64,000 nucleotides of DNA, taken from sequence record KC690136; one strand, 5' to 3'. The notes beneath the pieces were generated by a model, which did not search any database, was not told the DNA's origin, and worked only from the letters and a program-made list of their open reading frames with translations. Source of the stretch: Escherichia phage JES2013. Of this stretch, positions 3,492 through 58,477 are shown piece by piece. A program made the translations under genes and the position numbers. The stretch's first letter is position 1. Every line of letters begins with the position of its first letter.

Positions 3492-4310
3492 TTGAGTAAG
3501 AAAGAGTCCAACGACAAATATTACACAAACCCTGAGTATGCAGAATATCTTGTTGGTAAAGTAAAAGATAAGTATGGGAATTGTGCATACGTTGAGCCTT
3601 CTGCTGGAAGAGGTTCTTTTTCAAAACTATTTTCAGAGATACTGTCGTACGATTTAGTACCAGATCCTGAATTTGAAGGACCAACACCGTGCATTCAGGC
3701 AAACTTCTTGGAGGTGCACCCCAAGGCAGATGTCTTCATAGGTAACCCACCGTTTGGTAAGAATTCATCTTTAGCTTGCAAATTCTTTAACCATTGTGCA
3801 TCATTGCTAGAGCTTGGCGGGGCTATAGCCTTCATCTTGCCACGGACATTTGAAAAAATATTTTTTTCAAACAAACTGGACATGTCTATGCACCTTGTCT
3901 ACAGCGAAAGGTGCCCTAAGAACTCGTTTTTACTTAATGGCAAACCTTATGACGTGCCATGTGTTTTCCAAATTTGGGAGAAAAAGGCGTGCAATAGGGA
4001 TCCTGTAGATATTGGAGAGAATAAGTTATTTTCTTTTAGCACACCGGATGACTACGACTTCTGTGTAAGACGTGTTGGGTATAACGCTGGAAAAGTATTG
4101 GGTGATGATGATCCAAAATCTGAAGAATCTACATATTTCATAAAATCTTTAGTTGACGGTGTTGACAGAGTGTTTGCTGAATGCTATTCTTCTTTTCAAG
4201 AAGAAGCAGGTAAGACTGCTGGAATGAAGAGTATAGGCAAGAAAGAACTACAATACATTTTGGAGACCCGGTATGATCAAAAGCATAGACTTGACCAAAG
4301 AACTTACTGA
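3492..4310 (+). CDS. DNA N6-adenine methyltransferase (gamma-class-like)
   Basis: TTG start; motif I EPSAGRGSF then motif IV NPPF. Confidence 0.55.
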   Translation: MSKKESNDKYYTNPEYAEYLVGKVKDKYGNCAYVEPSAGRGSFSKLFSEILSYDLVPDPEFEGPTPCIQANFLEVHPKADVFIGNPPFGKNSSLACKFFNHCASLLELGGAIAFILPRTFEKIFFSNKLDMSMHLVYSERCPKNSFLLNGKPYDVPCVFQIWEKKACNRDPVDIGENKLFSFSTPDDYDFCVRRVGYNAGKVLGDDDPKSEESTYFIKSLVDGVDRVFAECYSSFQEEAGKTAGMKSIGKKELQYILETRYDQKHRLDQRTY

Positions 4311-4950: not shown

Positions 4951-5564
4951 TGGATATTATTGTTCTTAACGCCCCACCTAGTAGTGGTAAGGATCACATT
5001 GCAGATCTCTTGTTGGAAGCTATTCCTAACTCACACCATCGTGAGGTTAAGGAGATGCTCTTCAGCGTGGCAATTAAGGCAGCTGGTGTAACTCCTCAAC
5101 TCTGGAATGCACTTTATGACCGCCACTACAAAGAAGAGCCTTGCCCTTTCTTAATGATAGACGGTAAGCATGTTTCTCCGCGAGAGTGGATGATCCATTG
5201 TAGTGAAAATCTGATTAAACCTATCTTTGGTGAAGATGCTTTCGGTAAGGCCGCAGTCACATCCTTGAAGAAAGATTTCCCTAAAGGTAAAGGGGTTGTT
5301 GTTTACTCCGATGGTGGATTCAAAGAGGAGCTGGCATGCCTTAGTGAGTACGCATACAGCACAGGTGGAGATCTGTTGTTGTTCCGTATTCACCGTGTTG
5401 GATATGACTGGGGAAATGATTCCAGAACCTATCTAAGTCTGGAAAAGAACGGAATAAAAGGGATTGAGTTCGATGTTGTAAATCCTGAAGGTGCACCTTG
5501 GGAATGTGCATCGGAGATTGTGTGCAAGTATATTGATGCTAAAGAGGCCCAAGAAGAATGTTAA
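4947..5564 (+). CDS. deoxynucleoside monophosphate kinase (T4 gp1-like P-loop kinase)
   Basis: N-terminal P-loop NAPPSSGKDHIAD resembles T4 dNMP kinase SGKDT. Confidence 0.45.
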   Translation: MMDIIVLNAPPSSGKDHIADLLLEAIPNSHHREVKEMLFSVAIKAAGVTPQLWNALYDRHYKEEPCPFLMIDGKHVSPREWMIHCSENLIKPIFGEDAFGKAAVTSLKKDFPKGKGVVVYSDGGFKEELACLSEYAYSTGGDLLLFRIHRVGYDWGNDSRTYLSLEKNGIKGIEFDVVNPEGAPWECASEIVCKYIDAKEAQEEC

Positions 5565-35475: not shown

Positions 35476-35709
35476 TCAACTATTTTCAAAAAATTTTTCT
35501 GCTGTGATATTCTTCCCGGTAGGGTTCGCTACTTTCAAAATTTTATCATGCACTGGACGCCCAAAAGAATAAGCGCCGTACACAGTAAACCAATAATCGC
35601 CGTCAGGTTGTACTATTACTGCCGCATATGGTACGCCTTTTTCGTTTTTGCTGACAAAATAGATCACGTTGCCATTAATAGCCTCGGCGCGTTTAATTTG
35701 TTCCATCAT
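35476..35709 (-). CDS. hypothetical protein
   Basis: Track ORF. Confidence 0.45.
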   Translation of the reverse strand: MMEQIKRAEAINGNVIYFVSKNEKGVPYAAVIVQPDGDYWFTVYGAYSFGRPVHDKILKVANPTGKNITAEKFFENS

Positions 35710-35765
35710 GATGATTTGCCTCTCTTTATTTTCATAATTGGGGGGCCTTTTCGGCCCCGCCAGGT

Positions 35766-36116
35766 TTATTTATTGATAGCGTGCAGCGGGAAAGGTACGC
35801 CAGGTTGATAGATAACCTTTACAACCTCATCAGGACAAAAGAAGTTGCAGAACTCACCGCAATAGGCCTCATCCTCTTTCAACTCTTCATCAACATACTC
35901 AAAAAAGTAGTCGATGCTTGGATAATCTTGACCAGGGTTATAATCAACCATAGTGAGGACCAGTTCAAGATCATTGCGGATGATATGCATACCAGCTTTT
36001 AAATACTTCGCTTCCATTTTTACTACATCGCCAGCGGTAACAATAGCCATGGTTTTAACTCCTGTTTCTGTTAATGATTGGAGGCATAACCCCCCTCGAC
36101 AACTCTTATTATCCAT
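35766..36116 (-). CDS. hypothetical protein
   Basis: Track ORF. Confidence 0.45.
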   Translation of the reverse strand: MDNKSCRGGLCLQSLTETGVKTMAIVTAGDVVKMEAKYLKAGMHIIRNDLELVLTMVDYNPGQDYPSIDYFFEYVDEELKEDEAYCGEFCNFFCPDEVVKVIYQPGVPFPLHAINK

Positions 36117-36275
36117 ATTGTAGGGCTTGATGCAAGTACTTCTTTAAAAAATTTTTAAGTGCCTTGGAGGCCGCTGTAACGCCAAAATAATAAAGGCCAT
36201 GCAACCGCATAGCCTTTATGTGATTATATCGCTGCAGGCCCTGCTAGGGGCCTTATTTTGCATCATTTGCCGGAA

Positions 36276-36584
36276 CTATACAGAGAAAACATCGTTCACA
36301 ATAGCGATCACAATGCCGCCCACCTTGTCACGGTCAACAATGCACAAATCACCATAGATCATGTGGTAGTCTGGATGATCTTTCACGGAATAGTCAATGA
36401 GCGTTTTCTTGTCGTCCAGCTTTGTAACTTCCATTCTCATAACGATATGAGAATCATCAAAGGCATTATTCCGAAAAGTCATAGCCTGACCACCAGGGCA
36501 CCCAGTGATCTCCACTTCCACACCGTCTACGATCTGACCATCAAAGAAATAAAGATTATTAGCCAGGATAAACATGTTTATCAC
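36276..36584 (-). CDS. hypothetical protein
   Basis: AAGGAG RBS before ATG 36584. Confidence 0.5.
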   Translation of the reverse strand: MINMFILANNLYFFDGQIVDGVEVEITGCPGGQAMTFRNNAFDDSHIVMRMEVTKLDDKKTLIDYSVKDHPDYHMIYGDLCIVDRDKVGGIVIAIVNDVFSV

Positions 36585-36623
36585 TCCTTGTTAACTGCGT
36601 GTTATTTTACCACGATTAAAATT

Positions 36624-36668
36624 TACTTTACTGATGGCCCTGGCGTCAAGGCCATCTAAAAATAAATT
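36624..36668 (-). repeat. 45-47-bp repeat with hairpin GATGGCC...GGCCATC, copy A
   Basis: TTTACTTTACTGATGGCCCTGGCGTCAAGGCCATCTAAAAATAAA; directly after stop of 36668-36868. Confidence 0.6.
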
Positions 36669-36868
36669 TACAGGCCTACAATCTCTTTGATTCGTTTAAC
36701 TGCTGCCTCAGCGCCTTGGGGGTAGAAATTATGGTAACCGATCACGCGAGTGATACTAATCGCAGTTTGATGATCTTCATAATAGCCCTTGAAGATTTCT
36801 TGACCGTCAATCAGCACGGCAATTTTTTCTTCTTTTTTGAAGTTAATAACGCGGATATTGTTGCTCAT
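36668..36868 (-). CDS. hypothetical small protein
   Basis: Track ORF. Confidence 0.45.
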   Translation of the reverse strand: MSNNIRVINFKKEEKIAVLIDGQEIFKGYYEDHQTAISITRVIGYHNFYPQGAEAAVKRIKEIVGL

Positions 36869-37009
36869 TTTGTTTCTCCTTTCTGGTTTTTGTGTTGGTG
36901 GGGATTAGCTCCCCGTTGATTATTATTATCCATATTTCGGACCGGATTGCAACACCCCGGAAGAAAAATTTTTTGAAAAAGTTAGGCCCCCAGGGATCGG
37001 GGGCCGTTA

Positions 37010-37129
37010 TCAGTTACTTACAGCGATAAAATACATCCCTACGCCTAACAATATTTCAAGGGCGATGATCTCAAGCCATACCATAACCCGGCGCACCTTA
37101 TCGGTGCGGGGCTTATCCTTGGTTGTCAT
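37010..37129 (-). CDS. small membrane peptide (39 aa)
   Basis: GGGGGAG RBS then ATG 37129; C-terminal TM helix. Confidence 0.3.
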   Translation of the reverse strand: MTTKDKPRTDKVRRVMVWLEIIALEILLGVGMYFIAVSN

Positions 37130-37371
37130 CGTCTCCCCCTTTCATCCTGGTAGTAGTGACGTGGTTTACAATGGCCCCCAGGAGTACCATCACCACGCAC
37201 ATCACAAGAAAAATTATCTCTGTCGTTGTTCGATCCATTGTTATAAAATTCCTTAAGATCAGGCCTGAAAATAAAGCGTTCGTTATTGAATCCATCACGC
37301 CAGGCGGCTGGCTTCAAATCTTCATCAAAGGGATTAATTAACGTGGTATTATTTAAACGGCTGGCCCACAT
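37126..37371 (-). CDS. hypothetical Asn/Asp-rich protein
   Basis: ATG 37371 (internal to track ORF 37126-37389). Confidence 0.35.
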   Translation of the reverse strand: MWASRLNNTTLINPFDEDLKPAAWRDGFNNERFIFRPDLKEFYNNGSNNDRDNFSCDVRGDGTPGGHCKPRHYYQDERGRR

Positions 37372-37720
37372 ATTTTCTATTCCTCTCAAATAGGCGATCC
37401 GCCTCAGTTAAACAAATCTCATGGGCGTGATCTCTGGTTTTAGCTTCATCGAAAACCTGTTGTGCAAGGCTGCAGCGTAGGGAGACTGGAAGATCACTAT
37501 AATAGGCGTTGACAAATGTTTGCGCGTCATACAGGTCGGAAAATACTTTACCCTTTCTATTATCGCCTTTGTCAACAATTGCAAGGATAACAAGTACAAT
37601 AGTTGCAACCACCCCCAGGAAAATAGATATAATAAACCATAAAAAGGCGGATCTACCCATCTTGCCAGCGATCCAGGCGTTAAACAAGGCAACTAATACG
37701 GCCAAAATAATAAATTCCAT
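37349..37720 (-). CDS. membrane protein (two TM helices)
   Basis: AAGAGGT RBS then ATG 37720 (MEFIILAVLVALF). Confidence 0.5.
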   Translation of the reverse strand: MEFIILAVLVALFNAWIAGKMGRSAFLWFIISIFLGVVATIVLVILAIVDKGDNRKGKVFSDLYDAQTFVNAYYSDLPVSLRCSLAQQVFDEAKTRDHAHEICLTEADRLFERNRKYVGQPFK

Positions 37721-37784
37721 TCTATGTACCTCTTTTGCAGTTCTGTTTAACAATAAGGCGGCAAATATGCCGCCTGTTACCTGA

Positions 37785-38165
37785 TTAAAAATTATCGCCG
37801 TAAATCTTTCCGCTTTCTGCCCACACCACCACGCGGGGCATACTATCCCACACGTCTTGTTTTAGATTGAGCGCGTGCAATTCTTCGGTGGTGCCCATAC
37901 CAGGCACGGGCTGATTGTATACTGCAAAACGACCACCTGCATAATCATAGGCCAGGGTTAAATCACACTGAATCATCTTTTTGATCATGGCGTTGAGCAT
38001 AGCGTTAGCCGCATACTGGTCACGTTTTAAAGGCAACTCTTTGATTAGTTTGCGATAGTTTTCAATGTGATCGCACACTGTTTCACGTGGAAGATCTTTC
38101 ATATCCTCGCGAAAGGTAACCAGGTTAAACATAACGGTGTCAATAGCTTTAGTAGTGTTTTTCAT
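37785..38165 (-). CDS. hypothetical protein
   Basis: AAGAGGAAAA RBS; 5' hairpin upstream. Confidence 0.5.
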   Translation of the reverse strand: MKNTTKAIDTVMFNLVTFREDMKDLPRETVCDHIENYRKLIKELPLKRDQYAANAMLNAMIKKMIQCDLTLAYDYAGGRFAVYNQPVPGMGTTEELHALNLKQDVWDSMPRVVVWAESGKIYGDNF

Positions 38166-38256
38166 AATGTTTTCCTCTTTGTTTTGTGTGGGGCAAACGT
38201 CTTGCCCCCCCTTGAGTTTTAATATAGCAAGTTTTTAGATTATTGCAACACTTTAT

Positions 38257-38880
38257 TTATGAAAAACTCATCTCTCCATATTCATCCACATCAAACCGCC
38301 AATCATTGGCCTCAATAAGGCCGATCAGGTTTTCGGTAGTGAACTGTTCTAGATAGGCCTCCTCCAGGTCTACGTAAACCTTGCGGGATAGCTCCCGTAC
38401 CGTCTCGGTGATCAGCTCTTCCAGGTCTTCCACTTTGTTTTCTTGTTTGGCGGTCAGATCTAGCCAGGTGGTATCAATGTATCCGCTTACAGTGTTTTCA
38501 TGGCTGTAATGGCTGTACTTGTCGCGTTCAATACTGGCTGATAACTCGCCATCGTGCATTGTGCCAAACAAGTGACGAATTGATCGGAACTTGGTCAGGG
38601 CCTTTACTTTACGCAAGAATTTTTCTAAATCCACGTTTTCAGCACTGATTGACGCGCCGTCACCCTGGCACCAAAAGCCGGACCAATGTACATCGGTATC
38701 TTCAAGGCCGTACTCTGGAAAAACTTGCTCTTTATAATATTCAATTACACTTTCTGCGAAAAAATCCTCTCCGCTGTGTTCTTCTCTTTCGCGGACCATT
38801 TCAATAGCTTTTTCTTTTTGTTCGTCGGTCAGCACGTCGAAAGATAAATTGCAACCTGTGGTAATGTTAACGGTGGTCAT
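38257..38880 (-). CDS. hypothetical acidic protein
   Basis: Track ORF; promoter and 5' hairpin upstream. Confidence 0.5.
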   Translation of the reverse strand: MTTVNITTGCNLSFDVLTDEQKEKAIEMVREREEHSGEDFFAESVIEYYKEQVFPEYGLEDTDVHWSGFWCQGDGASISAENVDLEKFLRKVKALTKFRSIRHLFGTMHDGELSASIERDKYSHYSHENTVSGYIDTTWLDLTAKQENKVEDLEELITETVRELSRKVYVDLEEAYLEQFTTENLIGLIEANDWRFDVDEYGEMSFS

Positions 38881-38937
38881 GATATTTTCTCCTGTTTTCT
38901 TTGTTAGTGGCGGGAAGTTTTCCCGCCTGTGTTTTTA

Positions 38938-38965
38938 ATTATACTTATTGAGATTTACTTGTCAA
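38938..38965 (-). promoter_or_regulatory. sigma70-type promoter (minus strand)
   Basis: Minus strand TTGACA (38965-38960), 16-nt spacer, TATAAT (38943-38938); 5' hairpin 38909-38927 follows. Confidence 0.55.
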
Positions 38966-39215
38966 CACTATTTTTTAAATTATTGTGGCGCAAAATGTTT
39001 AAAATCTCTTCAACGTCATCAACACGGCGGCAATTTTTAAACGCTACCAATTGCCCCATGATTTTAATCACTGGGCGGCCTTGCCAGTGCCCCTGGAGAA
39101 AGCGCGCCTTGACTTTATCAGTGGAACTATCACGCCACCAAACGGCCTTGTTATTGCAGTAGTAAAAATTATTCAGGACAATATCAACTTTATCAAAATT
39201 TTTTAATTTACGCAT
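38955..39215 (-). CDS. hypothetical protein
   Basis: Track ORF. Confidence 0.45.
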   Translation of the reverse strand: MRKLKNFDKVDIVLNNFYYCNNKAVWWRDSSTDKVKARFLQGHWQGRPVIKIMGQLVAFKNCRRVDDVEEILNILRHNNLKNSVDK

Positions 39216-39250
39216 AGTGTTTACTCCTTCCTTCTTGCTTTGATGTGGTT

Positions 39251-39279
39251 AGTATATCCGGACTATTCCAAGGTGTCAA
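39251..39279 (-). promoter_or_regulatory. sigma70-type promoter (minus strand)
   Basis: Minus strand TTGACA (39279-39274), 17-nt spacer, TATACT (39256-39251). Confidence 0.45.
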
Positions 39280-39460
39280 GCTTTAAATAAAATCACTGTC
39301 AATGATATTTTTAACACCATAAAACGGCCCTGGGTGATGTTTTCAGGCTAAGAAAGGGGATTGCATAGGTAGGGGCTTTTGTGGCGTTTGTGGGGCCAAC
39401 CAGGGGCGCTATTCGTAGGATAGAAATAAAAAGCCCCGCACAATGGCGGGGCGTTGGTTG

Positions 39461-39658
39461 TTATTTGTCTTTATGGCGGTATCGTTCCGCTTGTCGTTCA
39501 CGTTCCAAAAGTAGGCCCGGCAATTTACGATCATAATGATTCCGCCAGATCTTCCCAAATCTTTTTGGCTTATTCAGTTTATTGTTGCGCTGGCGGCGTT
39601 CCGGCAACTCTTCGGAATCATGAGATCGCTTTACAATTTTCTCAAAATTAATCTTCAT
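39461..39658 (-). CDS. small basic protein
   Basis: Track ORF; Arg/Lys-rich. Confidence 0.4.
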   Translation of the reverse strand: MKINFEKIVKRSHDSEELPERRQRNNKLNKPKRFGKIWRNHYDRKLPGLLLERERQAERYRHKDK

Positions 39659-40020
39659 ATATTCCCACCCTTGCTAACTTCAATATTGGCCTGAATCGCC
39701 CGGATACGGCGTTTTATAACCTCCTGATCCGTGCAATCGTATCCCCAAAAGTCTACAATTTTCGCGCCGCCAGCTTTTAAGCGGTATAATGTTTCTTGCA
39801 TTTTGTAAGCTGGGATCGGTCGCGGTGTTACCTGGTCGCCTTTTTCATCCTTGTACTTGATTATGTAGTCCTCGTTGTCGTTGAATACCCAAAAAGGGTA
39901 CTCTGTAAGGGCGTTGCTTTCTTTTTCGTTTTTAGATTGGATCTTGTTTACAATTAAAGCCGTAGCAATAGCGCCAATAATAAAACTAGCCCCGCTGATC
40001 ATGTTACTTTCTCCTTTCAT
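39655..40020 (-). CDS. membrane-anchored protein
   Basis: N-terminal TM helix. Confidence 0.45.
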   Translation of the reverse strand: MKGESNMISGASFIIGAIATALIVNKIQSKNEKESNALTEYPFWVFNDNEDYIIKYKDEKGDQVTPRPIPAYKMQETLYRLKAGGAKIVDFWGYDCTDQEVIKRRIRAIQANIEVSKGGNI

Positions 40021-40077
40021 TGTGTTGATAAACTATCTTTATAGATGGCCCTGTTACCAGGACCACCGAAAAAATAA

Positions 40078-40323
40078 CTATTTCACAATGCCTACAAAAC
40101 AGATCCCGCCTTCACCTATATAGGCAATATCGGTAATTTTATAATTTGTCAAGATCCGCGTGTTCAGATCATTAATAAAATCGGTCATCGCGTTGGTGTA
40201 GTTGTCTTCCGTGTCTAAGGCATAATCCCAGGTGTAAACCTTTTTACGTCCGAAGCCTTTTACCATGATACGGGCGCTTTTGGTGTTGGTAGGGGCATAA
40301 TATTTGGTGATTAGTGCTGCCAT
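40078..40323 (-). CDS. hypothetical protein
   Basis: Track ORF; GAGGAG RBS. Confidence 0.45.
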   Translation of the reverse strand: MAALITKYYAPTNTKSARIMVKGFGRKKVYTWDYALDTEDNYTNAMTDFINDLNTRILTNYKITDIAYIGEGGICFVGIVK

Positions 40324-40366
40324 GGTTTTAACTCCTCTGAATTAGTTCAGTGTTAACAGTATAAAG

Positions 40367-40413
40367 TTTACTTTATTGATGGCCCTGAAGTCAAGGCCAT
40401 CTAAAAATAAACT
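40367..40413 (-). repeat. 47-bp repeat with hairpin GATGGCC...GGCCATC, copy B
   Basis: TTTACTTTATTGATGGCCCTGAAGTCAAGGCCATCTAAAAATAAACT; directly after stop of 40413-40754. Confidence 0.6.
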
Positions 40414-40754
40414 TACTCGTTTTCTTCCAGCTCCGCAAGCTCTTCTTTTGCTTCTTCTAACTCTGTCTGTAGTTCCTGGTATTCTTCATCGTCCTCAATA
40501 TCCAGGCTGTCGATGTAGTCGCTAAATCCGCAGCGGTAAGCGATAGGATCTAGCTCCTTGAGGATACGCGACGGAAGAAAAGAAATGTTTCCGATCATAA
40601 TTTCGCCGTAGATCTCGTCTAACCATTCATCATAGTTTTCGTCGTACTTGTCCTCGTCGATTTCAAAGTTATCGATCTTGTTCTCAAGGTCTGCGATCTG
40701 TTTTTTCAGCGCGGCGATCTGCATAGCTTTTTCTGCGGCGGTCATAGTAGTCAT
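40413..40754 (-). CDS. highly acidic coiled-coil protein
   Basis: Track ORF; Asp/Glu-rich. Confidence 0.5.
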   Translation of the reverse strand: MTTMTAAEKAMQIAALKKQIADLENKIDNFEIDEDKYDENYDEWLDEIYGEIMIGNISFLPSRILKELDPIAYRCGFSDYIDSLDIEDDEEYQELQTELEEAKEELAELEENE

Positions 40755-40805
40755 GGTGTTTTCTCCTTTTGTGTGCTCTGGGAAGTTTTCCCGTTTACGT
40801 GTTTA

Positions 40806-40833
40806 AGTATAGCGATCTAAGTTAGTTTGTCAA
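40806..40833 (-). promoter_or_regulatory. sigma70-type promoter (minus strand)
   Basis: Minus strand TTGACA (40833-40828), 16-nt spacer, TATACT (40811-40806); hairpin 40780-40792 in 5' UTR. Confidence 0.45.
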
Positions 40834-40953
40834 TTAAAAATTTAAGAAAAATTTTGCAAAACTGTTAGCGCTACTCATTAACATTTGCGCCAGGATGTAA
40901 CCAATGATGCAAACGATAATAGTTACCTTTGTGTGCTGGCGTGTAGTACTCAT
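40834..40953 (-). CDS. small membrane peptide (39 aa)
   Basis: ATG 40953; MSTTRQHTKVTIIVCIIGYILAQMLMSSANSFAKFFLNF. Confidence 0.3.
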   Translation of the reverse strand: MSTTRQHTKVTIIVCIIGYILAQMLMSSANSFAKFFLNF

Positions 40954-40987
40954 CTTTAAGCCCCCCTTTCCGCTCAACTGTGGTTAG

Positions 40988-41034
40988 TTTACTTTATTGA
41001 TGGCCCTGGAGTCAAGGCCATCTAAAAATAAACT
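40988..41034 (-). repeat. 47-bp repeat with hairpin GATGGCC...GGCCATC, copy C
   Basis: Near-identical to copy B (one mismatch in loop); directly after stop of 41034-41429. Confidence 0.6.
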
Positions 41035-41429
41035 CAGTACGTTTTCAGTACTTTCCCGTCCAACCTGTCTAACTGAATCTCAATAGCTGCAGAAAACCTA
41101 TTGTAAACCACATCGCCCAAGGAGTCCAGCCAATCTATAACGTTATACACCTGCTCTTTATTCTTGCAAGTCCGGATCCGTTTCATTACGTAAGACGGAT
41201 CAATATTAGTACTCCCGTTGTTGTGGTCATGCGCCTGGCCTGCTGCACTGGTTATAGATTTTACAACCACCTGAAAGGGCTTTAAGGTGCCTTTTGCGTT
41301 CATCTCACGCGCTTTTGCGGCGCGGTTGTTATATGTTACACAACGGCGGCAAATGTTGAATAAATGCATGTCAATAATTTTTTCATCGTTTGCCAGTTCG
41401 TTCATGATGCGGCGTACGTTCTTATTCAT
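41034..41429 (-). CDS. hypothetical protein
   Basis: Track ORF; 5' hairpin 41447-41464 upstream. Confidence 0.5.
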   Translation of the reverse strand: MNKNVRRIMNELANDEKIIDMHLFNICRRCVTYNNRAAKAREMNAKGTLKPFQVVVKSITSAAGQAHDHNNGSTNIDPSYVMKRIRTCKNKEQVYNVIDWLDSLGDVVYNRFSAAIEIQLDRLDGKVLKTY

Positions 41430-41512
41430 AGCTTTTCCTCTGTGTTGGCGGGATGTTTCCCGCCTTTTGTGTCTAGTTTACTTGAATTTTGCAGCGTGTC
41501 AATAATTTTTTT

Positions 41513-41911
41513 TTATTCGTGGGCACATGTTACAATGTGCTTTTTATAGCCCAGGTGGGCAGCAAGTGCCGCCAAAAACTCATCTTCATAGATCCAGCCG
41601 TTGGCAGTGATCCCCATAGCATTTAATGCGCTCTCAAGTGCTGCGTTAGCTTTATCATAACCGTGACCGCTCGCCTTGCCGCCAGTATAACCGTACTTAT
41701 TGTTCTTGTTGTCGTGTATCCAAAAAACGCAGTAGTTAGTGTTACCGCTGGCGGCGGCATAGTACCGGATCTCCGCTACTTCGTGCAAATTATTATCATC
41801 GTCCAGGCCAACCAGATTATAAGCCTTGTAAAATCCACGATCACGGCGGCAGTTCTTGACATCAGAAAAAGAGAAGTCGGCATTGTCAAAATTAAAGGTT
41901 GTGGTTTTCAT
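41513..41911 (-). CDS. hypothetical protein
   Basis: Track ORF. Confidence 0.5.
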   Translation of the reverse strand: MKTTTFNFDNADFSFSDVKNCRRDRGFYKAYNLVGLDDDNNLHEVAEIRYYAAASGNTNYCVFWIHDNKNNKYGYTGGKASGHGYDKANAALESALNAMGITANGWIYEDEFLAALAAHLGYKKHIVTCAHE

Positions 41912-41975
41912 GATTTTATCCTCTTAGTGTCTTTTGTGATTTCAGTATATTTTGTGTCGGGGCGTATGTCAATAC

Positions 41976-42173
41976 TTATTTTTTATTAAACCAGTGATTG
42001 ATCTGACCTTTTGTCAGGGCGCAACGATTAAGCTGTTGCAGGGTATAGCTATGACCGCGACGAAATTTATAAAGGCCTTGCCCGTTGTTGATGGTTACAT
42101 CCACCAGGCAAACCACTTGATCGGTGACCACCTGGCGAGTGTTGCGACGTACTTTGATTCCGTATGCGTTCAT
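41976..42173 (-). CDS. hypothetical small protein
   Basis: Track ORF. Confidence 0.4.
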   Translation of the reverse strand: MNAYGIKVRRNTRQVVTDQVVCLVDVTINNGQGLYKFRRGHSYTLQQLNRCALTKGQINHWFNKK

Positions 42174-42251
42174 GATTTTTTATCCTCTCTGTTAATTAGT
42201 GTGGTGTTGTTCACCTTGCGAGGATAAGAATAACAAGAACTGTCCGAGCTG

Positions 42252-42413
42252 TCAACCATTAGTTAAAATTATTTTTGCCCCTGCCAGGTTAACCATCATT
42301 TTTTCGTACTCTTCTTTATGTTCCAACGCTCCCGCCATAGCCTTTTCAACCAGGGCGATAGCCTCAGCGTCATTAATAGCTACATTTTCCAGGGGGATCA
42401 TATTACCTTTCAT
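42252..42413 (-). CDS. hypothetical small protein (53 aa)
   Basis: GGAGGTAC RBS then ATG 42413. Confidence 0.4.
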   Translation of the reverse strand: MKGNMIPLENVAINDAEAIALVEKAMAGALEHKEEYEKMMVNLAGAKIILTNG

Positions 42414-42945
42414 TTTTGTACCTCCCCTTCAATTGTTACCTATCCTATAGCATAGGCCCACCAGGTTTACAAGCCTTCATTCTCTCCTGCCTGGTCAGTT
42501 AGGTCCTGCCAGGCTGGCCCCGCCAGGTTGCAGCGGTTAGCGCATCAGGTTAGAAAAATTTTTTGAAAAGTGTTGACAGCGGCCCCGCCAGGTGGCACAA
42601 TATACCTATCGAAAGGACGGCAGGCACCGGTGACGGGGGAGGCAACCACCGGGGATGGACGCTGCATAAAATGAGAACGGTTATCATTATCATTTAAAAA
42701 TTTATGCAAAAAATCCTTGCTTTCTTTGTCCTGTGTGATACTATAATAACAAGCCGGGGCAACAGGGGCCGGGAGACAATCACCGGGCCTGCCCGTTATT
42801 CTGCAAACGAGAATGATTATCATTCAAAATTCTAAATGAGAACTCCTCGCATTTAATAAATTTAATTAGCATGCTAATTACCCTCCGTAACAATTTCCTA
42901 TAAAACAGTATCCCATAAAATATTTCCATATAGAAATTTTAAAAA

Positions 42946-43387
42946 TCCATTTCTGAAAACGAAAAATCGATTTCGTCCCCAAAAATTTCAGGTCGAGATC
43001 CGGAACGATTTCCAGAAAATCCGATTTAGAAAACGAAAAACAGATCGAGTACTGAGAAATTTATCGAGAAAAATTTTCAGAAAATTCAATCTTTGAAACG
43101 AAAAACAGATCGAGTACCTGGAAAGCTGCACTGCAACTTCAAGATAGTGGTTAGATTATTACCATAAAAGGTCAAGGGTAAGTGGAGGAAGTTCTAGTAG
43201 AAGGATGTGAGCATGTGTGGGAAATCTATAATGGTGGCCTGGAATATGGTGCAAACGATAGGATGAGTTATTCAGCTTGTCGCGCCTACTCTGAAAAATC
43301 CATTTTAGTTTTCGATCCATTTTCTGATTTTCTAAGAATTTTAAAATATCCAGCCCGGTGAAATATCAAAAGGAGGAAATCCATTTT
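42946..43387. repeat. iteron-like repeats: ATCCATTT(T/C) x4 and 23-bp direct repeat GAAA(A)CGAAAAACAGATCGAGTAC x2 plus a partial copy
   Basis: Copies at 42946, 43298, 43316, 43379; 43029-43052 and 43095-43117; partial 42955-42971. Confidence 0.55.
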
Positions 43388-46907: not shown

Positions 46908-46969
46908 TTTTCAGATCTCCTTATACAAAAATGCCCCACCCTTTCGGGCAGGGCTATGTCAGTTAGGTG

Positions 46970-57672: not shown

Positions 57673-58456
57673 TAATTCTGCTCCTTACTACAGGCTCGTT
57701 TGCTAAGAATACGGCTTTTGCCCAGCCACGTGGTGTGAGGCTTCGAATCATCTTCGTTCTTGCACTCTTTCCACCCAGCTTGGCGTGTTGCATGGAATAC
57801 CCGCTAACCACGTCAACTATTTGCGGGACAGGTTTTGTGGCCGGGATTATAAATCCATTACCTATCCAGCCGCAAGTTATTTTTGGATAGGCATCACGTG
57901 GAGCTATAAATTCAGGAAACCATGGGTTTACATCATCTTCCGGTAAATACCCGCCATAGTCAGAAGGATGAAAACGGTAATCAGGTTTGCGCCACAGTGT
58001 GGACATAACACCTACAGGATTCTCTACATGCCACGGGCAATCGTAAATCTCTCCCAGCTCTTCCGCAACCCGAGCATCCCTTACAGCATTAATTTGGATC
58101 ATGGGGTCCTTAGCCAGCTTTTTCTTAAAATGTGCAGCACCTGATACCGCTAAATGCGTGCACGGAGGAAATGCAAGAATAAAGTCTGGAGCTGGGTACA
58201 TGCAAAAAGTTTCCTGAGGGAACCATGGGTCAATCCAATAATCCACATAGTGAATGTTGGGATGATCGGTTATCACCTCTGCATAACTGCCGTGATCAGC
58301 ACCTTCTGCATTAAAGCACAGGCACAGATACCCAGCTTTTGCCCAGTCAATGACTGCACCACCAGATCCGTCAAATAGGCTCCACACAACACCTTTGTGG
58401 TAGTGTTCTTTGTAGATAAATTTCAATTTGCTGTCTCCTAATGCAAAAAGCCCCAC
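57662..58456 (-). CDS. DNA cytosine-C5 methyltransferase-like protein
   Basis: Motif I FDGSGG, motif IV PPCTHLAVSG (catalytic Cys), motif VI HVENPVG, in canonical order. Confidence 0.45.
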   Translation of the reverse strand: MGLFALGDSKLKFIYKEHYHKGVVWSLFDGSGGAVIDWAKAGYLCLCFNAEGADHGSYAEVITDHPNIHYVDYWIDPWFPQETFCMYPAPDFILAFPPCTHLAVSGAAHFKKKLAKDPMIQINAVRDARVAEELGEIYDCPWHVENPVGVMSTLWRKPDYRFHPSDYGGYLPEDDVNPWFPEFIAPRDAYPKITCGWIGNGFIIPATKPVPQIVDVVSGYSMQHAKLGGKSARTKMIRSLTPRGWAKAVFLANEPVVRSRINGK

Positions 58457-58477
58457 CCTTTCGGGCAGGGCCTAGTG

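What the first reader, a model, noticed from the sequence alone, without database searches (positions are those of the whole stretch)
36624..41034. Three copies of a 47-bp hairpin repeat placed directly after stop codons
TTTACTTTA(T/C)TGATGGCCCTG(G/A)(A/C)GTCAAGGCCATCTAAAAATAAA occurs at 36624, 40367 and 40988, each abutting the stop codon of a minus-strand gene. Copies B and C differ by a single loop position. Each contains a 7-bp stem GATGGCC/GGCCATC with TTGAC in the loop but no downstream U-run on the coding strand, so it is not a classical terminator. Candidates are RNA processing sites, phage-specific promoters or a small selfish element.
Basis: seen in the sequence. Interest (0 to 1): 0.55.

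Follow-up and report, generated by a model that had tools for sequence, protein, structure and literature searches.

The report
Repeated early-mRNA hairpin in rV5-like phage
Four copies of a ~50-base two-storey RNA hairpin sit just after the stop codons of small early genes in an rV5-like E. coli phage; they most likely punctuate the early messages (cut or protect them, and perhaps restart transcription), and the phage recombines between copies to lose gene cassettes, which makes this a new example of a known kind of element rather than a new principle.

Summary
Three near-identical 45-nt copies occur (0 expected by chance), and there is a fourth, diverged copy at 40028-40082. The window is the early-gene region of a Vequintavirus (rV5-like). 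The family occurs only in that genus, four copies per genome, always at the same four intercistronic sites.

On the sense (minus) strand each unit folds into a two-tier hairpin: a 7-10-bp AU-rich lower stem, a UA/AAU internal loop, a 10-bp upper stem and a tetraloop (-23 to -28 kcal/mol). Compensatory changes and G-U-only substitutions show that the structure is selected in the sense-strand RNA.

The layout matches my fold predictions for the intergenic hairpins of the T7 early operon, which I take to be its RNase III sites. Copies A-C carry UA and UG pairs beneath the tetraloop, as in the published RNase III distal box. Copies A-C also read as a moderate sigma-70 promoter (TTGACN-18-TAAAYT), like the PeSL promoter/stem-loop cassettes of T4-type phages.

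Natural variants carry hybrid copies that lack the intervening cassettes, which shows recombination between copies.

The element is not an intrinsic terminator, not a phage-polymerase promoter and not a mobile element. Verdict: a new member of a known kind, of moderate-to-low interest.

The parts
36620..36668 (-). Copy A: two-tier hairpin between the 66-aa ORF (36668-36868) and the 99-aa ORF (ATG at 36575). Upper stem 36633-36656. Promoter-like hexamers are TTGACG at 36644-36649 and TAAATT at 36620-36625.
   Evidence: -23.1 kcal/mol, z -4.3; 76.1 bits on the minus strand, 43.4 on the plus strand.
40365..40413 (-). Copy B: two-tier hairpin between the 113-aa ORF (40413-40754) and the 81-aa ORF (40078-40323). 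Upper stem 40378-40401. Promoter-like hexamers are TTGACT at 40389-40394 and TAAACT at 40365-40370.
   Evidence: -27.8 kcal/mol, z -6.4; 82 bits.
40986..41034 (-). Copy C: two-tier hairpin between the 131-aa ORF (41034-41429) and a 39-aa membrane-like ORF (40858-40977). Upper stem 40999-41022. Promoter-like hexamers are TTGACT at 41010-41015 and TAAACT at 40986-40991.
   Evidence: -26.4 kcal/mol, z -6.3; 78.2 bits.
40031..40079 (-). Upper stem GGUGGUCCUG/CAGGGCCAUC with two G-U pairs, loop GUAA. It has no TTGAC.
   Evidence: -22.6 kcal/mol, z -4.75; 64.3 bits.
40412..40985 (-). Cassette between copies C and B: the 39-aa ORF, a strong promoter at 40806-40833, a 5' hairpin and the 113-aa ORF. 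It is absent, leaving a single C/B hybrid copy, in phiWec189, ECP32, ime and one IMG/VR contig.
   Evidence: hybrids with a C-type left flank and a B-type right flank.
40083..40364 (-). Cassette between copies B and D: the 81-aa ORF 40078-40323. It is absent, leaving a B/D hybrid copy, in phage 241Ecol014PP.
39433..39452 (-). Canonical intrinsic terminator (GC hairpin followed by TTTTTATTT) that ends the operon containing copies B and D. It shows what a real terminator looks like in this phage.
40806..40833 (-). Near-consensus early promoter (TTGACA-16-TATACT, 11 of 12) that starts the operon containing copies B and D. It is a reference for bona fide promoters in this region.
   Evidence: the orthologous site is annotated P192 in the rV5 record.

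Best explanation
Each repeat is the DNA image of a ~50-nt two-tier hairpin in the sense strand of early polycistronic mRNA. It starts 0-2 nt after a stop codon, inside operons that have their own strong promoters and true terminators. I infer that it works as an mRNA punctuation signal of the kind used in the T7 early operon. Host RNase III would recognise the ~20-bp quasi-continuous helix, whose internal loop lies 10-11 bp below the tetraloop and which has U-A and U-G pairs under the loop. It would cut on the 3' side of the internal loop, or the hairpin would at least block 3' exonucleases. The upstream cistron would then end in a protective hairpin, and neighbouring small early genes would acquire separate stabilities. 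In copies A-C the same 45 nt also spell a moderate sigma-70 promoter (T-rich upstream block, TTGACN, 18 nt, TAAAYT). That promoter may restart transcription just downstream of the hairpin, as PeSL cassettes of T4-type phages do. What is shown here: the copies, the fold, its sense-strand-specific conservation, the intercistronic placement, and recombination between copies that removes the intervening cassettes. What is inferred: RNase III cleavage or stabilisation, and promoter activity.
For: Structure. The sense-strand folds give -22.6 to -27.8 kcal/mol (z -4.3 to -6.4); the antisense strand gives -11.6 to -20.6. They are among the most stable 56-nt folds in 16 kb.

Conservation. Over 35 distinct copies, 98.6% of pair cells are paired, against 35-56% when the partners are slid. 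Four lower-stem pairs change on both sides, and four upper-stem pairs change only to G-U. There are 88 G-U cells that pair only on the sense strand, against 5 A-C cells. A stepwise path A-U, G-U, G-C is seen at pair 8-48. Variation is concentrated in tetraloop positions 3-4 and in the internal loop. The covariance model scores 64-82 bits on the sense strand and 29-44 on the antisense strand.

Context. All four copies lie between cistrons of operons bounded by near-consensus promoters and U-tract terminators.

RNase III likeness. My predicted folds of the T7 early intergenic hairpins show the same plan, and the one I take to be R1 has the same UA / AAU 2x3 internal loop. The model's best hit in the T7 early region is that same hairpin, although the score is not significant. 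[quoted passage not shown] Copies A-C have U24-A31 and U23-G32 in that position.

Promoter and PeSL likeness. TTGACN-18-TAAAYT scores 9 of 12. The T of the wobble pair and loop nucleotides A and C never vary, while loop positions 3-4 do. Copies A and B carry PhagePromoter predictions in the Gotham record. The PeSL description matches: stop codon in an AT-rich block, then -35 and -10, with a stem-loop that may overlap the -35.

Recombination. Hybrid C/B and B/D copies are found with the cassette missing.
Against: There are no transcript-end or cleavage data for any Vequintavirus in the searchable literature. The proximal-box preferences of RNase III are only partly met: position 2 is A-U, but positions 1 and 3 are not the preferred pairs. 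My mapping of those positions is an inference from the paper's text and the T7 sequence. The identification of the folded T7 stretches as RNase III sites R0.3, R0.5, R1, R1.1 and R1.3 rests on coordinates I recalled from memory; the RefSeq record fetched does not annotate them. Copy D lacks the UA/UG distal box. The model hit on the T7 hairpin has E about 1. The evolutionary depth is shallow (at least 90% identity between genomes), and most double changes separate D from A-C, so independent events are few. The promoter match is weaker than that of the neighbouring real promoters, and 9-of-12 matches are common in this AT-rich DNA (51 found, 32 expected). One diverged C copy changes the -35 to -10 spacing, and the Gotham C copy has lost 5 nt of the 3' arm, so copy C at least is dispensable.
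Confidence: 0.55

Rival explanations
1. The element is primarily a PeSL-type cassette. Copies A-C are active sigma-70 early promoters, and the hairpin acts as a transcription attenuator or terminator for upstream transcripts, isolating each small gene transcriptionally. RNase III plays no role.
For: TTGACN-18-TAAAYT lies under a T-rich upstream block, 35-45 nt before the next start codon. TTGAC is invariant, including the wobble T and loop AC. PhagePromoter predictions exist in the Gotham record. The PeSL paper reports stem-loops overlapping the -35 box, and reports both promoter and terminator activity. Hairpins embedded in promoters are also seen in the early region of Klebsiella phage KP13-26.
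Against: The match is only 9 of 12 with an 18-nt spacer, while the neighbouring promoters score 11-12 of 12. Copy D keeps the full hairpin but has no -35. The '-10' and the 'UP' block pair with each other and co-vary (TAAACT becomes GATAGT or GATAAT, with compensating changes in the 5' arm), which base pairing explains without any promoter. The spacing is not kept in the diverged C copy of L019 (15 or 20 nt). There is no U-tract for intrinsic termination.
Confidence: 0.25
2. The element is a palindromic double-stranded DNA operator bound by a dimeric phage or host regulator that controls early transcription.
For: It is an inverted repeat (GATGGCC ... GGCCATC) centred on a promoter-like sequence.
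Against: Substitutions keep pairing only through G-U on the sense strand (88 G-U cells against 5 A-C cells). That breaks the DNA symmetry and would have no benefit for a double-stranded DNA site. The two half-sites of copy D differ from each other. The AU-rich lower stem also co-varies.
Confidence: 0.05
3. The element is a small selfish or mobile palindromic element (REP- or MITE-like) that inserts after stop codons.
For: It is a short palindromic repeat placed after stop codons, as REP elements are (my own knowledge). Paralogous copies are nearly identical.
Against: The covariance-model and pattern searches find only four copies per genome, all within 4.4 kb. The same four orthologous sites are occupied in 14 isolates and 6 metagenomic contigs, and no copy lies at a new site. 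There are no target-site duplications. The element is absent outside Vequintavirus.
Confidence: 0.04
4. The element is a rho-independent terminator, or a promoter for a phage-encoded polymerase (T7-like, or N4-like hairpin type).
For: It is a stable GC-rich hairpin in an intergenic position.
Against: There is no U-run after the hairpin on either strand, and true terminators nearby do have one. No RNA polymerase gene is annotated in the complete navn genome. The strand that folds better is the non-template (sense) strand, and the stem is far longer than the short hairpins of N4 promoters (my own knowledge).
Confidence: 0.06

Closest known systems
RNase III processing signals of the phage T7 early operon (R0.3, R0.5, R1, R1.1, R1.3)
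   Same: Both are a family of related hairpins repeated in the intercistronic spaces of an early polycistronic transcript made by the host polymerase. Both have a lower stem, an asymmetric internal loop, a 9-10-bp upper stem and a tetraloop. My predicted fold of the T7 hairpin I take to be R1 has the same UA / AAU internal loop. In A-C, UA and UG pairs sit beneath the loop-closing pair, as in the R1.1 distal box (PMC1540722). T7 promoters are annotated in the same intergenic spaces as these hairpins.
   Different: There is no significant sequence homology (covariance-model hit 11.9 bits, E about 1). The lower stem here is almost pure A-U. The proximal-box positions fit only partly. Copy D lacks the UA/UG box. 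Cleavage is untested. The assignment of the folded T7 stretches to named RNase III sites is from my memory of the coordinates, because the record does not annotate them.
PeSL (promoter-early stem-loop) cassettes of T4-type phages (PMC2839356, PMC4122927)
   Same: Both are short repeated intergenic motifs in a region of small ORFans. Both have the upstream stop codon in an AT-rich block, sigma-70-like -35 and -10 boxes, and a stem-loop that may overlap the -35. In both, recombination between neighbouring copies deletes or inserts gene cassettes (compared).
   Different: The host phage is a Vequintavirus, not a T4-like phage. The promoter match is only moderate. The hairpin is a long two-tier structure that encloses the whole promoter-like sequence, not a simple GGGG/CCCC stem. 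There are only four copies per genome. Mini-circles and promoter or terminator activity were not tested.
REP / BIME intercistronic palindromes of E. coli (my own knowledge)
   Same: Both are imperfect palindromes placed after stop codons within operons. REP elements stabilise the upstream mRNA against 3' exonucleases and show a G-U strand asymmetry.
   Different: There are no signs of mobility or of a RAYT-type transposase. The copy number is four, and the family is confined to one phage genus.

Membership tests
E. coli RNase III processing signal (T7 early type) | About two helical turns (~20 bp) of quasi-continuous double-stranded RNA | tested here: met
   A 10-bp upper stem plus a 7-10-bp lower stem on the sense strand in all four copies. 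The criterion comes from PMC1540722.
E. coli RNase III processing signal (T7 early type) | An internal loop or bulge that limits cleavage to one strand and leaves a 3' hairpin, about 11 bp from the tetraloop | tested here: met
   A 2x3 internal loop (UA/AAU; UC/UAU in copy D) lies 10 bp below the tetraloop, or 11 counting the A.A mismatch. My predicted fold of the T7 hairpin taken to be R1 has the same topology and the same loop letters.
E. coli RNase III processing signal (T7 early type) | Distal box (UA and UG pairs) and proximal-box base-pair preferences | tested here: inconclusive
   Copies A-C have U24-A31 and U23-G32 beneath the closing pair, which matches the distal box; copy D has C-G there. 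In the proximal box, position 2 is A-U (allowed), but positions 1 and 3 are U-A and G-C instead of G-C and A-U. The position mapping is my inference.
E. coli RNase III processing signal (T7 early type) | Actual cleavage by RNase III in vivo or in vitro | not testable with these tools
   This needs RNA end mapping in rnc+ and rnc- hosts, or an in vitro assay.
PeSL (T4-type promoter-early stem-loop cassette) | A strong sigma-70-type promoter consensus inside the motif | tested here: inconclusive
   TTGACN-18-TAAAYT scores 9 of 12 in copies A-C and is absent from copy D. Neighbouring real promoters score 11-12 of 12, and 9-of-12 matches are common here.
PeSL (T4-type promoter-early stem-loop cassette) | A stem-loop within or overlapping the promoter, with the upstream stop codon in an AT-rich block, between small ORFan genes | tested here: met
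   The flanking genes all match PHROG families of unknown function.
PeSL (T4-type promoter-early stem-loop cassette) | Recombination between copies produces cassette insertions and deletions between related phages | tested here: met
   C/B hybrid copies occur in phiWec189, ECP32, ime and IMG/VR contig L006; a B/D hybrid occurs in 241Ecol014PP.
PeSL (T4-type promoter-early stem-loop cassette) | Demonstrated promoter and terminator activity; mini-circles | not testable with these tools
   This needs reporter fusions and inverse PCR.
Rho-independent terminator | A GC-rich hairpin immediately followed by a U-tract | tested here: not met
   The hairpin is followed by AAUAAAGUAAA on the sense strand and by UAAAAAUAAA on the antisense strand. 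The terminator scan does not report it, although it finds nearby true terminators.
REP/MITE-like mobile palindromic element | Copies at non-orthologous sites, many copies, target duplications or a cognate transposase | tested here: not met
   There are four copies per genome at fixed orthologous sites in about 20 genomes and contigs.
Phage-polymerase promoter (T7-like or N4-like hairpin promoter) | A phage-encoded RNA polymerase; for the N4 type, a short hairpin on the template strand | tested here: not met
   No RNA polymerase gene is annotated among the 217 CDS of the complete navn genome. The favoured fold is on the non-template strand.
Any Rfam RNA family | A match to a curated covariance model | tested here: not met
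   A cmscan of 35500-42500 at E up to 10 gave no match on copies A-C. The only hit touching an element is a far sub-threshold SurC match that overlaps copy D (24.5 bits against a gathering score of 80, E 0.2), which I read as chance.

The most novel reading that the evidence does not exclude
The same 45 nt may work at two levels. As DNA it would be a complete sigma-70 promoter (UP-like T-run, -35, -10). As RNA, in read-through transcripts, those same promoter parts pair with each other to form an RNase III 'cut here' hairpin. Each small early gene would then be released from the upstream message and re-primed at one compact, portable linker, and that linker would also serve as the homology patch for swapping gene cassettes between phages.
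Probability: 0.2. Interest if true: 0.55.

Novelty: new member of a known kind. Interest (0 to 1): 0.35.

Why it matters
rV5-like phages are widely used as therapy and biocontrol candidates, yet their early transcription is known only from consensus scans. The rV5 genome paper lists 33 promoters and 20 terminators, and this element is not among them. If the hairpins are RNase III or stability signals, they define how the early operons are split into messages. They would also extend the T7-style punctuation logic and the PeSL-style cassette shuffling to a third, unrelated group of large coliphages. In practice, the hybrid copies show where natural deletions arise, which helps in engineering or minimising these genomes. 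The principle itself is not new.

Tried and rejected
- Rfam scan of the region: no match on copies A-C; only a far sub-threshold SurC hit overlapping copy D.
- Pattern, HMM and covariance-model searches of the whole window and of a complete relative (navn) for further copies: only the four known copies.
- IMG/VR and metagenome scans: only a handful of additional Vequintavirus contigs.
- More distant relatives: phage TH18 (Vequintavirinae, 61% identity for a neighbouring protein) and Klebsiella phage KP13-26 have no homologous element.
- The 'repeat_region' annotated in phage isim turned out to be a coding low-complexity repeat, not this element.
- I tested whether mosaic breakpoints between genomes cluster at the elements. 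The whole region is a fine-scale mosaic, so no specific enrichment can be claimed.
- The deletion in rV5_ev146 goes through a roughly 10-nt microhomology, not through the repeats.
- Literature searches for Vequintavirus transcriptomes, or for PeSL-like elements outside T4-like phages, found nothing.
- A TATACT just downstream of copy B was considered as an alternative -10. I rejected it because it is not conserved among phages and has no suitable -35.

Full report
**Observation.** One search finds the 45-nt pattern exactly three times, at 36622-36666, 40367-40411 and 40988-41032, with none in 100 shuffles. Copies B and C differ at one position. One nucleotide separates each copy from the stop codon of a minus-strand ORF. 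The repeat finder, an nhmmer profile and a covariance model all add a fourth, diverged copy D at 40028-40082, directly after the stop codon of ORF 40078-40323. No further copy exists in the 64-kb window (filters off).

**Where we are.** The window is about 93-96% identical to Escherichia phages of the genus Vequintavirus (rV5-like). The 71-nt stretch around copy B is 100% identical to O157 typing phage 4. The finding lies in the leftward early region: a run of small genes on the minus strand, all in PHROG families of unknown function. One of them is a T7 gp1.1 homologue. The region has near-consensus sigma-70 promoters (11-12 of 12) and classical U-tract terminators. All four copies lie between cistrons, inside operons bounded by such promoters and terminators.

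**Distribution.**
- A short BLAST query hits 119 records, all Vequintavirus (several are labelled Campylobacter phage but classified in that genus), with about three places per record.
- In the complete navn genome only the four orthologous copies exist.
- IMG/VR and metagenome scans add only six Vequintavirus contigs.
- A more distant Vequintavirinae phage (TH18) and a Stephanstirmvirinae phage (KP13-26) lack the element.
- The rV5 genome paper lists 33 promoters and 20 terminators, and neither its Table S4 nor the rV5 GenBank record marks these sites.
- The Gotham record carries automatic PhagePromoter predictions over copies A and B.
- Rfam has no match on copies A-C. Its only hit touching an element is a far sub-threshold SurC match over copy D (24.5 bits against a gathering score of 80), which I read as chance.

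**Anatomy.** Folded as sense-strand RNA, the whole unit is a two-tier hairpin:
- a lower stem UUUAUUUUU/AAAGUAAA of 7-10 bp, containing one U-G pair;
- an asymmetric internal loop, UA on the 5' side and AAU on the 3' side;
- an upper stem GAUGGCCUUG/CAGGGCCAUC of 10 bp, containing one U-G pair;
- a tetraloop ACNN.

The minimum free energies are -22.6 to -27.8 kcal/mol (z -4.3 to -6.4). The antisense strand gives -11.6 to -20.6. These are among the most stable 56-nt folds in 16 kb of the early region, and the only ones with this design.

**Is the structure selected?** I collected the copies from 14 isolates and 6 metagenomic contigs. I aligned 35 of the distinct sequences, leaving out those with insertions or deletions.
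- For the 20-pair structure, 98.6% of cells pair, against 35-56% when the partners are slid by 1-3 columns.
- Four lower-stem pairs change on both sides: G-C/A-U/G-U, U-A/C-G/U-G, U-A/A-U/G-U/G-C and A-U/U-A.
- The four variable upper-stem pairs vary on one side only and stay paired; three of them do so by changing to G-U, and the fourth (pair 23-32) is U-G in A-C and C-G in D.
- Pair 8-48 shows a stepwise path: A-U, then G-U, then G-C in phiWec189.
- There are 88 G-U cells, which pair only on the sense strand, against 5 A-C cells. The antisense strand would therefore be only 86.7% paired.
- The covariance model scores 64-82 bits on the sense strand and 29-44 on the antisense strand.
- Free variation sits in tetraloop positions 3-4 (UC, UU, AC, GC, CC) and in the internal loop.

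Copy D keeps both stems while differing at many positions. The selected object is therefore a sense-strand RNA hairpin, not a symmetric double-stranded DNA site. Two caveats apply: the genomes are at least 90% identical, and most double changes separate D from A-C, so independent events are few.

**What does it do?** It is not an intrinsic terminator, because no U-tract follows it on either strand, whereas real terminators nearby have one. It is not a promoter for a phage polymerase, because none is annotated in a complete relative.

The two-tier design, with a lower stem conserved by covariation, calls for a reader of about 20 bp of double-stranded RNA. PMC1540722 states the following:
- E. 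coli substrates typically span two helical turns.
- Internal loops can restrict cleavage to one bond, leaving a 3' hairpin that protects against exonucleases.
- 11 bp separate the cleavage site from the tetraloop.
- The distal box consists of a UA and a UG pair.

Copies A-C have exactly U-A and U-G below the loop-closing pair, and an A.A mismatch at the eleventh position. The proximal-box preferences are met only in part, and copy D lacks the UG pair. This position mapping is my own inference.

I also folded five intergenic stretches of the T7 early region. I take these to hold the RNase III sites R0.3, R0.5, R1, R1.1 and R1.3, but that assignment rests on coordinates recalled from memory, because the RefSeq record does not annotate the sites. 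Most of these folds show the same plan; the minimum-energy fold of the stretch I take to be R1.1 showed no lower stem in the window folded. The one I take to be R1 has the same 2x3 UA/AAU internal loop. The Vequintavirus model's best hit in 6.2 kb of T7 is that same hairpin, aligned over the full model length. The score of 11.9 bits (E about 1) is not significant on its own. I therefore commit to a T7-style punctuation role, meaning RNase III processing and/or 3'-end protection of the upstream cistron. This step is inferred, not shown.

**Promoter reading.** Copies A-C also read TTGACN-18-TAAAYT under a T-rich block, 35-45 nt before the next start codon (9 of 12).

In favour:
- The wobble T and loop nucleotides A and C are invariant, while the next two loop positions vary.
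- The arrangement fits the PeSL cassettes of T4-type phages. Those have the stop codon in an AT-rich block and a sigma-70 promoter, with a stem-loop that may overlap the -35 box. They have shown both promoter and terminator activity.

Against:
- The match is weak compared with neighbouring promoters, and matches of this quality are common here (51 found, 32 expected).
- Copy D has no -35.
- The '-10' and 'UP' segments pair with each other and co-vary.
- A diverged C copy changes the spacing.
- The Gotham C copy has lost 5 nt.
- The UUG of TTGAC is equally well explained by the UA/UG distal box.

I rate promoter activity of A-C at roughly even odds.

**Recombination (shown).** In phiWec189, ECP32, ime and one IMG/VR contig, the 621-bp unit between C and B is missing. 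That unit holds the 39-aa ORF, a strong promoter and the 113-aa ORF. A single copy remains, with a C-type left flank and a B-type right flank. In 241Ecol014PP the 81-aa gene between B and D is missing, and the remaining copy is B-type on the left and D-type on the right. The crossover lies in CAGGGCCATC.ATAAAG. The D flanks occur in three of the four possible allele combinations. This is the behaviour described for PeSLs. The whole region is a fine-scale mosaic, so I do not claim that breakpoints are concentrated at the elements. One laboratory-evolved phage lost copy C through an unrelated microhomology.

**Comparison and verdict.** In function the element most resembles the T7 early RNase III signals. 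In genomic behaviour it most resembles the PeSL cassettes. I cannot file it as a proven member of either, because cleavage and promoter activity are untestable here. No defining feature that I could test contradicts either family, apart from the partial proximal-box fit and the moderate promoter score. The terminator, mobile-element, DNA-operator and phage-polymerase-promoter readings each fail a defining feature. The element is undescribed for Vequintavirus, but the principle is known. It is a new member of a known kind, with interest about 0.35.

Noticed in passing
window 38909-38965, 40780-40833, 41447-41502 (minus strand): A second repeated regulatory family: near-consensus promoters (TTGACA, 16-17 nt, TATAAT/TATACT/TAAACT) followed directly by a GGCGGGAA..TTCCCGCC hairpin at the start of the transcript. 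This is another PeSL-like subclass, with the stem-loop downstream of the -10.
   Followed up: partly
window 39461-39658 (minus strand): The 65-aa ORF matches Pfam Phage_1_1 (T7 gene 1.1 protein, E 2e-11). It lies in the same operon as copies B and D.
   Followed up: no
window 42924-43124; L027 3453-3665: A non-coding stretch holds three 62-74-nt direct repeats (GAAAACGAAAAA.. / ..GATCGAG..). A comparable three-repeat array sits at the equivalent place in the distant Vequintavirinae phage TH18. It may be an iteron- or origin-like region, and may be the 'non-coding' box of the rV5 paper.
   Followed up: no
window 46928-46954 and 58445-58471: Two 96%-identical copies of a GC hairpin (GCCCTGCCCGAAAGGGTGGGGC followed by a T-run on the minus strand). 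This looks like a duplicated intrinsic terminator 11.5 kb apart.
   Followed up: no
L017 (Klebsiella phage KP13-26) 259-313, 1206-1267, 1548-1609, 5929-5983: Repeated early promoters with a hairpin embedded in the spacer or around the -10, for example TTGACAAGCGCCCAAGAGGGGCGCATAAT. Promoter-plus-stem-loop cassettes therefore also occur in Stephanstirmvirinae.
   Followed up: no
L026 (T7) 2300-2352 and 5060-5087: The covariance model built from the Vequintavirus element ranks two T7 intergenic hairpins first and second in the T7 early region. I take them to be RNase III sites R1 and R1.1, an assignment from memory. The scores are non-significant (11.9 and 10.3 bits).
   Followed up: partly
window 35900-42400 against 13 related genomes: The early region is a fine-scale mosaic: identity in 100-nt bins jumps between 61% and 100% within single genome pairs. 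Many relatives also carry an extra 351-nt gene downstream of the 99-aa ORF that the window lacks.
   Followed up: partly
L007 (rV5_ev146) 4270-4300 against window 41441/40941: This laboratory-evolved rV5 derivative has lost the 131-aa gene and copy C through a CGCCA.CACA microhomology, and it has a further large deletion after window position 39513.
   Followed up: partly
window 36590-36612 (minus strand, downstream of copy A): TGGTAAAATA lies just after copy A in the window and in navn. It matches both the 'TggTAaAAtA' motif that the rV5 paper proposed as late-promoter-like and an extended -10. Most other relatives have a different sequence there.
   Followed up: no
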